Positions 52,165 through 56,173 of a stretch of 64,000 bases of DNA are shown here, piece by piece. Origin of the DNA: an uncultured Actinomycetota bacterium (GTDB lineage: Bacteria; Actinomycetota; UBA4738). The DNA is taken from contig CAVYRK010000002.1 of assembly GCA_963770955.1 (NCBI GenBank), positions 485,381 to 549,380 of the forward strand, given 5' to 3'. The position numbers and the translations under genes were made by a program. Position 1 is the first letter of the stretch. Each line of letters opens with the position of its first letter. The notes beneath the pieces are model-generated. The model was not told the DNA's origin and did not search any database. It saw only the letters and a program-made list of their open reading frames with translations.

Positions 52165-52743
52165 CTACGGGGAGACCGGGACGAGCCCGAGGAAGTTCTC
52201 CACGATCTGCGGCCCGTAGGGCGTGAGGATCGATTCCGGATGGAACTGCACGCCGAAGCGCGGCAGCGAGCGGTGTTCGACGGCCATGACCAGACCGTCC
52301 TCCGTCTCGGCGGTCACGAGCAGCTCGGCGGGCAGGTCGCCGCGGTCCACGACCAGCGAGTGGTAGCGCCCGGCCTCGAACGGGCTCGGCAGCCCGGCGA
52401 GGATGCCGTGGCCCTCGTGATAGACGAGCGAGGCCTTGCCGTGGACGGGCTCCGGCGCGCGCACCACCGGACCGCCGAACGCCGCCCCGATGGCCTGGTG
52501 GCCCAGGCACACGCCCAGCAGCGGCGTGGCGTCGTCGATCGCGTCCACCATGTCCAGGAAGCAGCCGGCCGACTCCGGCCGTCCGGGTCCGGGCGACAGG
52601 ATGACGGCCTGCGGCGACCGCGCCGCCAGCTCGGCCGCGCCTGCGTCGTCGGAGCGCACGACCCTGGTCCCGTGACCGAAGCTCTCGACGAGCTGCACCA
52701 GGTTGTAGACGAAGCTGTCGTAGTGATCGACCACCAGGATCAT
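52165..52743 (-). CDS. trpG: Anthranilate synthase component II (glutamine amidotransferase)
   Basis: ORF 52165..52743. GVCLGHQ catalytic Cys and FHPES. The start overlaps the trpE stop. Confidence 0.88.
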   Translation of the reverse strand: MILVVDHYDSFVYNLVQLVESFGHGTRVVRSDDAGAAELAARSPQAVILSPGPGRPESAGCFLDMVDAIDDATPLLGVCLGHQAIGAAFGGPVVRAPEPVHGKASLVYHEGHGILAGLPSPFEAGRYHSLVVDRGDLPAELLVTAETEDGLVMAVEHRSLPRFGVQFHPESILTPYGPQIVENFLGLVPVSP

Positions 52744-54224
52744 CGTGCTGCCTCCTCCGCGAGCACCGCGGGCAGGAGCGCCGCGGCTTTGTGGTTCGTC
52801 TCGGCGAGCTCGAGCTCCGGGTCCGAGTCCGCGACCACCCCGGCGCCGGTCTGCACAGTGGCCGCACCATCGTGGACGGTCACCGTCCGGATCGTGATGC
52901 AGAAGTCCAGGTCGCCGGCGAACGTCAGGTACCCGACCGCGCCGGCGTACGGCCCGCGTGCGGTCGGCTCGTGTTCCGCGATCAGCTCCATCGCCCTCCG
53001 CTTGGGCGCGCCGGTCACCGTCCCGGCGGGGAACGCGACGGCCAGCGCGTCCAGCGCGTGCAGGTCTGGCCGCAGCTCGCCCTCGACCGTCGACACGATG
53101 TGCATCACCTTCGTGAACCGCTCGACCTCCATCAGCTCGGTCGGCCGCACGCTGCCGGGGACGCAGACGCGGCCGAGATCGTTCCGCGCCAGGTCGACCA
53201 GCATCGCGTGCTCGGCCTGCTCCTTCGGGTCGGCCAGCAGCTCGTGCTCGAGCAGGCGGTCGCGCACCTCGGTCTGCCCGCGGGGCCGGGTGCCGGCGAT
53301 GGGCCGCGCCGACACCTTCCGTCCCTCCACCCGGACGAGGGGCTCCGGTGACGAGCCCGCCAGCTCGACCCCGAGCATGCGCAGGAAGAACATGTACGGC
53401 GCGGGGTTCGTCACGCGCAGCCGCCGGTACACCGGAAAGCCCCCGGCCGGGGCGGGGAACGCGAGCCGCCGCGAGGGCACGCCCTGGAAGATGTCGCCGG
53501 CCAGGATGTGCTCCTTGAACGAGGCGACGATCTCCCGGTAGCGCTCGTCGGACATGTTCGGGGTCCCGCCGGGCACCCCCGGCGGGAGGCCGTCGGGGAG
53601 CCGCGCCGGGGCAGGGGCCACGGCCCCGCCGATCCGGTCGGCCATGTCCCGGAGCGCGGCGACCGCCTGTGCGTAGCCGCCCGCCGGCGCGTGGGCGACC
53701 AGCAGGAGCCGCTGCCGCCAGTGGTCGAACACCACGGCCCGGTCCACCAGCAGCAGGCCGATGGGCGGGCAGGGGGCGTCCCCGGGCGAGGGCGCGGGAT
53801 GGCCGTCGAGCAGCGTCGCCGCCTCGTAGCTCAGGTACCCCATCAGGCCGCCGATGAGCGTCGGCAGGTCGGGGAGCCGTGGGCCGCGGAGCGCGCCGGC
53901 GAGCTCCTTGAGCCGGCCCAGCGGCGTCGCCGCTTCCGAGTCAGGTGGAAGGGGAACGTCGCGGGTCTGTCGCTCGACGCGAAGGCCGTCGCCGTCCACC
54001 ACCACGACGGCGGCCGGGTCGCCGGCGACGAACGAGTAGCGGCCCCAGCGCTCCGAGCGCTCCACGCTCTCGAGGAGGATGCCCGGGCCGTCGGCGGCCA
54101 GCGCCGGGAAGGTCCCCACGGGCGTGGAGACGTCCGCCAGCAGCTCGGTCCAGACGGGCACCAGCGGCCAGTCCGCCGCGAGCGCGCCGAACTCGTCTTC
54201 GCCGGGGCGGATCAGAAGCTCCAT
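52740..54224 (-). CDS. trpE: Anthranilate synthase component I
   Basis: ATG 54224 behind GAGGAG within ORF 52740..54575. LLESVE...GRYSF feedback-site motif. PYMFFL, GTVTGAPK and GYLTFAGDLDFCITIRT. Confidence 0.88.
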   Translation of the reverse strand: MELLIRPGEDEFGALAADWPLVPVWTELLADVSTPVGTFPALAADGPGILLESVERSERWGRYSFVAGDPAAVVVVDGDGLRVERQTRDVPLPPDSEAATPLGRLKELAGALRGPRLPDLPTLIGGLMGYLSYEAATLLDGHPAPSPGDAPCPPIGLLLVDRAVVFDHWRQRLLLVAHAPAGGYAQAVAALRDMADRIGGAVAPAPARLPDGLPPGVPGGTPNMSDERYREIVASFKEHILAGDIFQGVPSRRLAFPAPAGGFPVYRRLRVTNPAPYMFFLRMLGVELAGSSPEPLVRVEGRKVSARPIAGTRPRGQTEVRDRLLEHELLADPKEQAEHAMLVDLARNDLGRVCVPGSVRPTELMEVERFTKVMHIVSTVEGELRPDLHALDALAVAFPAGTVTGAPKRRAMELIAEHEPTARGPYAGAVGYLTFAGDLDFCITIRTVTVHDGAATVQTGAGVVADSDPELELAETNHKAAALLPAVLAEEAAR

Positions 54225-54263
54225 GTCCGTCTCCTCGTCCGGGGGCGCCCGCCCCGGGACGTG

Positions 54264-54289
54264 AAAAGCCCCGGGTCGGTGCCCGGGGC
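54264..54289 (-). terminator. Intrinsic terminator/attenuator hairpin in the trpE leader
   Basis: The minus strand reads GCCCCGGG-caccga-CCCGGGGC followed by TTTT. It ends ~40 nt upstream of the trpE start. Confidence 0.6.
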
Positions 54290-54316
54290 CTCGTCGCGGT
54301 TCGCGTTCGCTGCTGG

Positions 54317-54424
54317 CTAGACGCGCGGATGCGCCGGGCTCCGGGATCTCCAGGACCACCGCCAGCGTTCCGCTCGACGTCGCCATCGTGCCGTGATTGT
54401 GCGGGGAGGCGGCGGTTCCGTCAA
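54317..54424 (-). promoter_or_regulatory. Candidate trp leader peptide ORF (Trp codons at 54385-83, 54364-62, 54358-56, 54352-50)
   Basis: Minus-strand frame from TTG 54424 to TAG 54319-17 reads MTEPPPPRTITARWRRRAERWRWSWRSRSPAHPRV. The start codon is uncertain. ATG 54386 is one base out of frame with the Trp run. Confidence 0.4.
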
Positions 54425-54459
54425 CCGCCGGGGGTCGATCCCGTATCCTTCCCCGGACC

Positions 54460-56173
54460 ATGCGTGCCTCCAAGCTCTTCGCGCCGACGCTGCGGGAGGC
54501 GCCCGCCGAGGCCGAGGCGGCGTCCCACGTCCTGCTGCTCCGCGCCGCGTTCGTCCGCAAGGTCGCCGCGGGCATCTACACGAACCTGCCGTTCGGGGTG
54601 CGGTCGATGCGGAAGATCGAGGACATCATCCGCGAGGAGATGGACGCCTCCGGCGCGCAGGAGATCCGCATGCCGATCGTGCTCCCGGCCGAGCCGTGGA
54701 AGGTCACCGGCCGCTGGCAGGCCTACGGCGACCTGATGTTCAAGCTCACGGACCGCCACGGCCGCGAGATGGGCCTCGGGCCCACGGAGGAGGAGGTCGT
54801 CACGCCGATGGTCGCCGCGGAGCTGCCCAGCTACCGCGACCTCCCCGTGAACCTCTACCAGATCGAGTGGAAGTACCGGGACGAGTTCCGCCCGCGGTAC
54901 GGCCTGCTGCGCGGACGCGAGTTCCTGATGAAGGACGCGTACTCGTTCGACCGCGACGAGGACGGCATGCGCGCGTCGTACGACGTGATGTACGAGGCCT
55001 ACAAGCGGATCTTCGATCGCTGCGGCCTGGAGTACCGGATCGTCGAGGCCGACCCGGGGCAGATCGGCGGCGGGGTGAACCACGAGTACCTGGCGGTCAC
55101 GGAGGCCGGCGAGGACACCTTCCTCTATTGCGGGTCGTGCGACTACGCGGCCGACCTCGAGGCGGCCACGCCGGGTTGGGGGGCGCCCGGGTCGCCGCCG
55201 CCCGCGGAGCCGCTCACCGAGATCCACACGCCGGACGCGGCCACGATCCAGGCGGTCGCCGACCTGGTCGGGCGTCCCGCCTCGGAGATGCTGAAGACCA
55301 TGCTGTTCGACGCGGGCGGGCAGACGGTGGCCGTGCTGCTCCCCGGCGACCACGAGGTGAACGAGGAGAAGGTCGCGCGGCTGTTCTTCCCGACGCTGGT
55401 CCGCGCGTTCGACGAGAAGGACTTCGGCGAGCGCGGGTTCGCCAAGGGCTACGTGGGCCCGCAGGGCATGCCGGGCGACGCCGTCGTCATCGCGGACCCG
55501 TCGGTCCGGCTCGGCGCGAACTGGGTGACGGGCGCGAACCGCACGGACCACCACGTGACCGGGGCGAACGAGGGCCGGGACTTCCGGGTGGATCGCTGGG
55601 AGGACGTCGTCCAGGCGGTGGAGGGAGACCCGTGCCCGGTCGACGGCGGGAGCGCTCCTTGCCGGCCGCGGCATCGTCGTCGGTCACATCTACCAGTTGG
55701 GGACGCGGTACTCCGAGCCGCTGAAGGCGACGTTCCTGGACGAGGACGGCACCGAGCAGCCGTACCTGATGGGCTGCTACGGGATCGGCATCTCGCGGAT
55801 CATGGCGGCCGTCGCCGAGCAGTACCACGACGACGGCGGGCTGACGCTGCCGCCGCAGGTCGCCCCGTACGAGGCCGTCGTGATCGCGACGAACATGGAC
55901 CAGCCGGCCGTGGTGGAGACCGCGGAGGGGCTGTACACGGCGCTCGGGCAGGCCGGGCGTCGAGGCGGTCTTCGACGACCGGGCGGTGACGGCCGGGCGT
56001 CAAGTTCGCCGACGCGGACCTCATCGGCTACCCGGTGCAGGTCGTCGTCGGCAAGCGCGGCGTCGAGGCCGGGACGGTCGACGTGAAGATGCGCGCCTCG
56101 GGTGAGCGGGCGCAGGTGCCGCTGGACGGGGTCGCTCTGGCGGTGCGCGAGCGGCTCGAATCGGCGCGCGTAG
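54460..56173 (+). pseudogene. proS: Prolyl-tRNA synthetase; three +1 breaks (~55648-55655, 55955-57, 55995-97). The natural stop is probably TAG 56171-73, which is out of frame as given.
   Basis: ATG 54460. Class II motifs REFLMKDAYSF, the editing insertion, GHIYQLGTRYS (ORF 55697) and [19 protein letters not shown] (ORF 56035). The length to 56170 matches bacterial ProRS. As read, the frame runs on to 56457. Confidence 0.9.

What the first reader, a model, noticed from the sequence alone, without database searches (positions are those of the whole stretch)
54225..54459. Candidate tryptophan attenuator upstream of trpE-trpG: Trp-codon cluster, stop, then hairpin plus T-tract
The 236-bp trpE/proS divergent spacer contains three elements on the trpE strand. 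(i) A frame with four TGG codons, three of them within five codons: TGG CGG TGG TCC TGG at 54364-54350. (ii) A TAG stop at 54319-17. (iii) The hairpin GCCCCGGG-caccga-CCCGGGGC-TTTT at 54289-54264, followed ~30 nt later by the GAGGAG RBS and the trpE ATG. Segments TCCCGGAG and GCCCGGCG just after the Trp codons resemble the terminator's 3' arm, so they could pair with its 5' arm as an antiterminator. Ribosome-mediated attenuation with Trp-rich leader peptides is established for E. coli trpL and has been described for actinobacterial trp genes (Corynebacterium, Streptomyces). The weak point is the start codon. In the Trp frame only TTG 54424 (poor SD) is available. ATG 54386, preceded by a -10-like CACAAT 9 nt upstream and therefore possibly leaderless, is one base out of frame. 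A single inserted base of the kind common in this sequence would give MATSSGT-WRWSW-RSRSPAHPRV.
Basis: partly seen in the sequence, partly recalled or inferred. Interest (0 to 1): 0.6.

Follow-up and report, generated by a model that had tools for sequence, protein, structure and literature searches.

The report
Leaderless tryptophan attenuator before trpE
The spacer in front of the tryptophan-synthesis genes trpE-trpG holds a classic tryptophan-sensing mini-gene plus terminator hairpin, conserved in about 70 related uncultured actinobacterial genomes; it is a well-known kind of switch, and its broken reading frame in this window is most likely a one-base assembly error.

Summary
Comparison with relatives shows what they are. 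In about 70 related uncultured Actinomycetota genomes, trpE is preceded by the same module:

- a TTGAC -35 box and a -10 box;
- an ATG (or GTG) 6-10 nt after the -10 box, so the transcript is leaderless or nearly so;
- a reading frame of about 22 codons with Trp at codons 8 and 10 (WxW, WWW or WxWxW);
- a local hairpin inside that frame;
- a GCCCCGGG/CCCGGGGC hairpin followed by T-rich sequence.

In every relative with this ORF the ATG is in frame with the Trp codons. That includes the four closest relatives, three of them from short-read assemblies. Only the window carries one extra base, near 54365/54366. This assembly also has frame breaks in proS 1.3 kb away, so an assembly error is the likely cause.

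The proposed TTG 54424 start is the -35 hexamer, not a start codon.

Covariation supports the leader hairpin and the terminator. The antiterminator pairing is possible in nearly all members but has no covariation support.

Rfam has no matching model. The closest described case is the leaderless TrpL1 leader before trpE in Streptomyces.

Verdict: a real but ordinary element, a new member of a known kind.

The parts
54419..54424 (-). -35 hexamer TTGACG of the leader/trpE promoter.
   Evidence: Promoter scan: TTGACG-17-CACAAT, against 0.0 expected in shuffles. TTGAC lies 17-18 nt (once 15 nt) before a -10-like box in 71 of 73 related loci.
54396..54401 (-). -10 hexamer CACAAT
   Evidence: A (C/G)A(C/G)(A/C)AT box ends 6-10 nt before the leader start codon in 72 of 73 loci.
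54384..54386 (-). Leader-peptide start codon ATG. It lies 9 nt after the -10 box with no Shine-Dalgarno sequence, so the transcript is inferred to be leaderless or to have a UTR of 3 nt or less.
   Evidence: The position is conserved relative to the promoter in relatives. No transcription-start data are available.
54317..54386 (-). trpL-like leader ORF. It spans 70 nt in this assembly against 69 nt (22 codons plus stop) in most relatives. One extra base, most simply G 54366 or C 54365, separates the ATG frame from the Trp/stop frame.
   Evidence: The MAFFT alignment of 51 leaders shows one column present only in the window. The nearest relatives read ...ACC TGG where the window reads ...ACGC TGG.
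54350..54364 (-). Regulatory Trp codons TGG CGG TGG TCC TGG (W-R-W-S-W)
   Evidence: The first two Trp codons are invariant or nearly so in the 51-sequence alignment.
54345..54357 (-). Segment 1, the 5' half of the leader hairpin. It starts in the second Trp codon and would be covered by a ribosome stalled on the Trp codons.
   Evidence: Alignment columns 30-42. RNAalifold predicts the 1:2 hairpin. Pair counts for this hairpin together with the terminator: 90.5% paired, and covariation exceeds all 500 shuffles. In the window itself the inner helix is weaker; an offset hairpin is predicted instead.
54327..54341 (-). Segment 2 (GAGCCCGGCGCAUCC). It pairs with segment 1, or with the terminator's 5' arm as the candidate antiterminator.
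   Evidence: With segment 1 masked, this is the best partner of the terminator 5' arm in 45 of 51 sequences, at a mean of about -15 kcal/mol. The window's fold without the 3' arm shows this helix at -29.8 kcal/mol. There is no covariation.
54317..54319 (-). Leader stop codon TAG
   Evidence: The stop column is conserved in the alignment.
54264..54292 (-). Attenuator terminator: GAGGCCCCGGG (segment 3), loop CACCGA, CCCGGGGC (segment 4), then UUUU
   Evidence: The core is invariant in 51 sequences, and the outer and inner pairs covary. The 10 nt after the stem hold about 5 T on average against a 14% background, but long T runs are rare.
54231..54236 (-). Shine-Dalgarno sequence GAGGAG of trpE
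   Evidence: Read directly from the sequence.
52740..54224 (-). trpE, anthranilate synthase component I, 494 aa
   Evidence: NCBIfam trpE models, E about 1e-144.
52165..52743 (-). trpG, anthranilate synthase component II, 192 aa. It overlaps the end of trpE by 4 nt.
   Evidence: NCBIfam TIGR00566, scoring above its cut-off.
54460..55989 (+). Divergent proS (prolyl-tRNA synthetase). It is broken by frame shifts in this assembly.
   Evidence: The ORF from 54460 matches ProRS model positions 1-395. A different frame, 55697-56086, matches positions 411-497.

Best explanation
This is a ribosome-mediated transcription attenuator that controls trpE-trpG.

A sigma-70-type promoter (TTGACG-17-CACAAT) starts transcription at or within about 3 nt of ATG 54386. 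The first ribosome therefore loads on a leaderless mini-gene of about 22 codons carrying Trp codons (WRWSW here).

When charged tRNA-Trp is plentiful, the ribosome runs to the TAG stop. Segment 1 (just after the Trp codons) pairs with segment 2. The GC-rich hairpin plus U-tract at 54292-54264 then forms and stops RNA polymerase before trpE.

When Trp is scarce, the ribosome stalls on the Trp codons and covers segment 1. Segment 2 (GAGCCCGGCG...) is then free to pair with the terminator's 5' arm. The terminator does not form and trpE-trpG is transcribed.

Shown here: the parts are present; the module is conserved with an in-frame ORF in about 70 relatives; covariation supports the 1:2 hairpin and the terminator.

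Inferred: the leaderless start, the identity of the antiterminator, and the response to Trp.

The one-base frame break between the ATG and the Trp codons in this window is most likely an assembly indel.
For: - Anatomy of the spacer.
- Relatives: 73 distinct related loci carry the promoter, start codon, a W-containing ORF of about 22 codons (a few are 13-27) and the hairpin upstream of trpE.
- Frame: the window is the only row with an extra column. The closest relatives are in frame: L141 (TrpE 94% identical), L031 (87%), L142 (85%) and L039 (81%). L141, L142 and L039 appear to be short-read assemblies, judged from source and contig names.
- Structure: the leader hairpin plus terminator are 90.5% paired, with 9 pairs changed on both sides and covariation above all 500 shuffles. 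One pair swaps G-C (or G-U) for C-G by changing codon 11 from Arg to Pro and codon 18 from Ala/Val to Gly. So the RNA, not the peptide, is what is conserved.
- Alternative pairing: segment 2 can pair with the terminator 5' arm in 45 of 51 members, and does so in the window's own fold.
- T enrichment after the stem.
- Other copies: a covariance model finds only this site in the window's own genome. It finds strong matches (E below 1e-9) in 22 further genomes, all of the same order.
- Assembly quality: proS, 1.3 kb away, is frame-broken.
- Precedent: classical trp attenuators in Corynebacterium and Streptomyces, and leaderless TrpL1 before monocistronic trpE in S. lividans.
Against: - As assembled, no start codon downstream of the promoter opens the Trp frame.
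- The antiterminator has no covariation support.
- Its energy is not better than shuffled GC-rich sequence (z about -0.5 to -1).
- Segment 1 is also complementary to the terminator's 5' arm and is its strongest partner on energy. The wiring is therefore not settled.
- The U-tract is short: 4 U here, and interrupted in most relatives.
- The window's own 1:2 inner helix is weaker than the family consensus.
- There are no transcript or expression data.
Confidence: 0.8

Rival explanations
1. The extra base is real. In this organism a recent one-base insertion has fused the leaderless ATG in frame to trpE. Ribosomes would then read through the terminator hairpin and make a TrpE with 54 extra N-terminal residues. 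The Trp codons would be out-of-frame relics and attenuation would be lost, so expression would be deregulated.
For: ATG 54386 is in frame with trpE, with no stop between them. Leader decay does occur in relatives: some have only one Trp codon left (L066, L084), and in others the leader ORF is lost while the promoter and hairpin remain (L048, L057, L098, L106). The extra base is not in a homopolymer.
Against: The Trp frame downstream of the break is fully intact. It keeps three Trp codons, the conserved ...SPAHPR... tail and the stop at the family's usual position, so any mutation would have to be very recent. The assembly has many frame breaks nearby (earlier notes). All relatives that carry the WxW ORF are in frame, including the long-read MAGs among them.
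Confidence: 0.12
2. The leader peptide senses Trp, but the output is not intrinsic termination by the classical 1:2 / 2:3 / 3:4 exchange. The hairpin might act with Rho or NusG, or as a pause or processing site. Or the real competitor of the terminator might be segment 1 rather than segment 2.
For: U-tracts are short or interrupted in most members, and the scan calls no terminator. Segment 1 is the strongest partner of the terminator 5' arm on energy. Neither alternative pairing covaries.
Against: The hairpin does not overlap the trpE Shine-Dalgarno sequence, which lies 28 nt downstream. T is enriched about 3.5-fold after the stem. With segment 1 as the antiterminator, a stalled ribosome would cover it, and regulation would run the wrong way for a biosynthetic gene. 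The position of the stop codon, 14 nt after segment 2 and kept by a constant 22-codon length, fits the classical scheme.
Confidence: 0.07
3. Chance: Trp triplets and a GC-rich palindrome in a GC-rich spacer, with no regulatory role.
For: TGGNNNTGGNNNTGG occurs 5 times in the window. Folding energies are not exceptional against shuffles.
Against: The whole module is conserved upstream of trpE across families of the order, with covarying helices and an in-frame ORF.
Confidence: 0.01

Closest known systems
Streptomyces trpL1-trpE attenuator (S. venezuelae trpEG attenuator, Lin et al. 1998; S. lividans TK24 TrpL1 MFAHSTRNWWWTAHPAAH, PMC8079986)
   Same: Both are actinobacterial. Both have a leaderless leader peptide with three Trp codons directly upstream of an anthranilate synthase gene that stands apart from the other trp genes, followed by GC-rich hairpins and a U-rich stretch.
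   Different: The peptide and RNA sequences differ. Here there are 22 codons with Trp at 8 and 10 (WxW or WxWxW), against 18 codons with tandem WWW. In two large same-phylum genomes of unknown identity, the covariance model built here returned only false hits (a tRNA and a gene end). No Streptomyces sequence was compared directly.
Corynebacterium glutamicum trp operon leader (Heery and Dunican 1993; Seliverstov et al. 2005, PMC1262725)
   Same: A classical ribosome-mediated attenuator with UGG codons, a GC-rich terminator, and short complementary motifs shared between the alternative helices.
   Different: It precedes a whole trp operon rather than a trpE-trpG pair. There is no detectable sequence relationship.
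E. coli trpL attenuator (Rfam RF00513 Trp_leader)
   Same: The proposed mechanism is the same: Trp codons at segment 1, the 1:2 / 2:3 / 3:4 alternatives, and an antiterminator weaker than the terminator.
   Different: There is no Rfam match even at E up to 10. E. coli trpL has a Shine-Dalgarno sequence and a 5' UTR, whereas this leader has none. E. coli has tandem WW, against WxW here.
Mycobacterial leaderless polycysteine short-ORF attenuators
   Same: A leaderless short ORF enriched in the codon of the amino acid made by the downstream operon.
   Different: As I recall, those act without an obvious intrinsic terminator and sense Cys. This one has a conserved terminator-like hairpin.

Membership tests
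Ribosome-mediated trp leader-peptide attenuator (generic class) | A short ORF upstream of a Trp biosynthetic gene with two or more Trp codons | tested here: inconclusive
   Met in 73 related loci, including the four closest. In the window, the Trp codons and stop are present, but the only post-promoter ATG is one base out of frame. The feature is met only if the extra base is an assembly error, which could not be checked.
Ribosome-mediated trp leader-peptide attenuator (generic class) | An intrinsic terminator between the leader ORF and the structural gene | tested here: met
   An 8-11 bp GC stem plus UUUU at 54292-54264. It is conserved, with covarying flanking pairs, and T is enriched after the stem. 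The U-tract is short, and the strict scan does not call it.
Ribosome-mediated trp leader-peptide attenuator (generic class) | A mutually exclusive antiterminator whose formation depends on ribosome position | tested here: inconclusive
   Segment 2 can pair with the terminator 5' arm: 80% of cells are paired, it is the best partner in 45 of 51 sequences, and the helix appears in the window's own fold. There is no covariation, and the energy is not above shuffles. A rival pairing with segment 1 exists.
Ribosome-mediated trp leader-peptide attenuator (generic class) | Trp-dependent read-through into the structural genes | not testable with these tools
Rfam RF00513 Trp_leader | A match to the covariance model at the gathering score | tested here: not met
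   cmscan of 54000-54700 at E up to 10 gave only chance hits to unrelated sRNA models.
Leaderless actinobacterial leader peptides (as in S. lividans TrpL1 and C. glutamicum leaders) | The transcription start coincides with, or lies within 3 nt of, the leader start codon, with no Shine-Dalgarno sequence | tested here: inconclusive
   A conserved -35/-10 promoter ends 6-10 nt before the start codon in 72 of 73 loci, which leaves no room for a Shine-Dalgarno sequence. No 5'-end data are available.

The most novel reading that the evidence does not exclude
The extra base is genuine. In this lineage a one-base insertion has turned the sensor into an in-frame N-terminal extension of TrpE. Ribosomes that start at the leaderless ATG would translate straight through the terminator, and anthranilate synthase would escape Trp attenuation. 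This would be a natural counterpart of the leader mutations selected in Trp-overproducing Corynebacterium strains.
Probability: 0.1. Interest if true: 0.35.

Novelty: new member of a known kind. Interest (0 to 1): 0.25.

Why it matters
The finding adds a well-supported, sequence-distinct Trp leader family to a class of regulators known mainly from cultured bacteria. The family is leaderless, has 22 codons with a WxW motif, and has covarying helices. Strong matches were confined to one uncultured Actinomycetota order, and no Rfam model detects it.

It has three practical uses:
- Annotation. The trpE reading frame stays open for 117 codons upstream of the real start, and the leader ATG is in frame in this assembly, so gene callers could produce a false long TrpE.
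- Assembly checking. The conserved 22-codon frame pinpoints a likely one-base error.
- A possible new RNA-family model.

It does not change how attenuation is understood.

Tried and rejected
- Rfam scan of the spacer: no relevant family.
- Whole-spacer fold: energy no better than shuffles, z -0.65.
- Independent assemblies of the same species: an exact-pattern scan of metagenome contigs found nothing. Exact-protein look-ups of TrpE (494 and 548 aa) and TrpG found nothing.
- A closer relative (TrpE 94% identical) was found by protein search and is in frame. Contigs for the 91% and 86% relatives had no DNA available.
- TTG 54424 as the start codon: rejected, because it is the conserved -35 box.
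- Programmed frameshifting to join the two frames: rejected, because every relative with the ORF is simply in frame.
- Antiterminator covariation: none, either for segment 2 with 3 or for segment 1 with 3.
- Weak covariance-model hits in the window's own genome: false positives.
- Weak hits in two large same-phylum genomes: a tRNA and a gene end. The best TrpE homologue there follows what looks like the 3' end of another gene (read by eye as hisI, not tested), with no leader. No direct comparison with the Streptomyces trpL1 locus was made.

Full report
**Observation.**
- TGG CGG TGG TCC TGG at 54364-54350, with a fourth in-frame TGG at 54385-54383;
- TAG at 54319-54317;
- the hairpin GCCCCGGG-CACCGA-CCCGGGGC at 54289-54268, followed by TTTT;
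- GAGGAG at 54236-54231 and the trpE ATG at 54224.

NCBIfam confirms trpE (494 aa), trpG (192 aa, overlapping trpE by 4 nt) and the divergent proS. ATG 54386 is 162 nt upstream of the trpE ATG, in the same frame, with no stop between. The Trp frame is offset from it by one base. The triple-Trp pattern alone occurs 5 times in the window (expected 0.24). The hairpin pattern occurs once (expected 0.02). The significance comes from comparison with relatives, not from these counts.

**Promoter and start.** The scan found one sigma-70-like site, TTGACG (54424-54419), 17 nt, CACAAT (54401-54396), where shuffles gave none. The TTG that opens the 35-codon Trp frame is therefore the -35 hexamer. Across 73 related loci, TTGAC sits 17-18 nt (once 15 nt) upstream of a (C/G)A(C/G)(A/C)AT box in 71. 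That box ends 6-10 nt before the leader start codon in 72. This leaves no room for a Shine-Dalgarno sequence. The leader is therefore inferred to be leaderless or to have a UTR of at most about 3 nt. S. lividans TrpL1 is reported to be transcribed leaderless (PMC8079986).

**Relatives.** The genome is an incomplete MAG (63% complete, 11 contigs). TrpE searches returned 18 loci from unnamed relatives and 80 from named records. All the named records are uncultured Actinomycetota or Actinomycetes MAGs.
- 73 distinct loci have, directly after the promoter, an ATG or GTG that opens a short ORF with Trp codons. The ORF is usually exactly 22 codons, with Trp at codons 8 and 10. Examples are MATTVRDWRWSWGSRSPAPPRV, MSSGRNGWRWAWGSSSPALPRV, MRTHGTTWVWRRGSRSPVPARV and MSTRQSWWWPQGS.
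- About 20-28 nt after the stop comes a (G/A)CCCCGG...CCGGGG(C/U) hairpin.
- A protein search found still closer relatives. In L141 (TrpE 94% identical, JGI contig) the leader reads MATSRTWRWSWASGSPAHPRD*, with the same promoter and an identical terminator. In L142 (85%) it reads MARTNGTWRWSRGSRSPASPRV*.

**The frame break.** In the MAFFT alignment of 51 leaders, the window is the only row with a residue in column 10. It spans 70 nt from the ATG to the end of the stop, against 69 nt in the 22-codon majority. The four nearest relatives read ACC TGG at the junction, where the window reads ACGC TGG. The extra base is therefore most simply G 54366 or C 54365.

Downstream of the break, the Trp frame is perfectly preserved. 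proS, 1.3 kb away, is split between frames, and earlier scan notes list many such breaks in this assembly. I therefore put about 0.8-0.85 on an assembly indel and about 0.1-0.15 on a real, very recent mutation. I could not test this.

**RNA structure.** RNAalifold predicts two conserved helices: a hairpin inside the leader ORF and the terminator. On the alignment these 20 pairs are 90.5% paired. Nine pairs change on both sides, and the covariation score exceeds all 500 shuffles and all slid controls.

One pair, columns 33/54, alternates between G-C or G-U and C-G. It does so by switching codon 11 between Arg and Pro, and codon 18 between Ala/Val and Gly. The conserved peptide tail GSxSP is thus a by-product of the hairpin GGGCUC-NNN-GAGCCC. 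The RNA, not the peptide, is under selection.

The 10 nt after the terminator stem hold about 5 T on average against a 14% background. Runs of 4 or more T are seen in only 7 of 51 sequences.

**Switch logic.** Four segments can be defined:
- segment 1, (U)GGCGCCGGGGCUC, starts in the second Trp codon;
- segment 2 is GAGCCCGGCG...;
- segment 3 is the terminator's 5' arm;
- segment 4 is its 3' arm.

With segment 1 masked, as under a ribosome stalled on the Trp codons, segment 2 is the best partner of segment 3 in 45 of 51 sequences. The mean is about -15 kcal/mol, against about -22 for the terminator. This ratio resembles my recollection of the E. coli trp attenuator (about -12 against -20 kcal/mol).

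In the window, the transcript from 54343 to 54276 lacks segment 4. It folds into exactly this long-range helix at -29.8 kcal/mol. Adding segment 4 switches the fold to the terminator. The constant 22-codon length puts the stop 14 nt after segment 2. A terminating ribosome would then cover the 3' part of segment 2 and leave the inner 1:2 hairpin free to form. All of this fits the classical scheme.

Three caveats apply:
- The 2:3 pairing shows no covariation.
- Its energy is not better than shuffled GC-rich sequence.
- Segment 1 is also complementary to segment 3, and more strongly so, because the CCCGGG core is palindromic. A 1:3 antiterminator would give the wrong regulatory sign, so I rank it lower.

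**Distribution and prior knowledge.** A covariance model of the family finds only this site in the window's own genome. In a sample of 401 genomes across the phylum, it finds strong hits (E below 1e-9) in 22 further genomes, all of the same order. All hits outside the order are weak.

Most of the weak hits I fetched are sister attenuators. Some have F/Y/W-rich leaders upstream of DAHP synthase, and one has a Val-rich leader upstream of valS. The rest of the fetched hits were a tRNA, the ends of genes, or loci whose downstream gene I did not identify.

Rfam 15 has no matching model. Classical trp attenuators are described for Corynebacterium and Streptomyces (PMC1262725). A leaderless TrpL1 (MFAHSTRNWWWTAHPAAH) precedes monocistronic trpE in S. 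lividans (PMC8079986). Earlier notes of this scan record similar leaderless Trp leaders in several other phyla.

**Verdict.** This is a real regulatory element of a well-known kind, in a lineage and sequence family not previously described: a new member of a known kind, of modest interest.

Noticed in passing
L129, L130, L133, L136, L139, L140 (relatives; e.g. G296:C55:80270-80399): Relatives carry a sister attenuator: leaderless-looking leader peptides rich in Phe, Tyr and Trp, followed by a CCCCGGG hairpin. Examples are MSERFGDWFFYGGPGPA, MKRFFFGGWYFAGRGPA, MKTRSSWFGFFWGYYAPAAARLR and MRTFFGYRWFTAGLRPA. In L133 the downstream gene was confirmed as DAHP synthase (NF006421). In L136 and L140 the downstream protein looks the same by eye, and in L129, L130 and L139 the downstream gene was not identified. 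This resembles my recollection of the Corynebacterium aroR leader. It was not found in the window's own genome, which is 63% complete.
   Followed up: partly
L138 (G290:C368:9400-9534, minus strand): A Val-rich leader peptide, MRTVAVVVVGHPAWPGAAVR, plus a GC hairpin lies upstream of valS (valine-tRNA ligase). This is a candidate Val-sensing attenuator of an aminoacyl-tRNA synthetase.
   Followed up: partly
L048, L057, L098, L106, L066, L084 (upstream of trpE): Some relatives keep the promoter and hairpin but have lost the Trp leader ORF (L048, L057, L098, L106). Others retain only one Trp codon (L066 MSTRAYRCSWRGG..., L084 ...VRLWGSRSPGPPR). The sensor therefore decays in some lineages.
   Followed up: partly
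window 55650-56090: proS is split between reading frames. The ORF from 54460 matches ProRS model positions 1-395, and the ORF 55697-56086 in another frame matches positions 411-497. This confirms indel errors in the assembly close to the finding.
   Followed up: partly
window 54237-54259 (minus strand): A second strong hairpin, GUCCCGGGGC-GGGC-GCCCCCGGAC, lies between the terminator and the trpE Shine-Dalgarno sequence. Its 5' arm resembles the terminator's 3' arm. It is not conserved in the closest relative, L141.
   Followed up: partly
window 54225-54575 (minus strand): The trpE reading frame stays open for 117 codons upstream of the real start (ORF 52740-54575, 611 aa). It runs through the whole spacer and into the antisense strand of proS. 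Gene callers could easily over-extend TrpE here.
   Followed up: no
alignment A1, columns 33 and 54 (leader codons 11 and 18): Leader-peptide residues covary (Arg11 with Ala/Val18, Pro11 with Gly18) because their second codon positions form a base pair in the leader hairpin. This is a clear case of RNA structure dictating a peptide sequence.
   Followed up: yes
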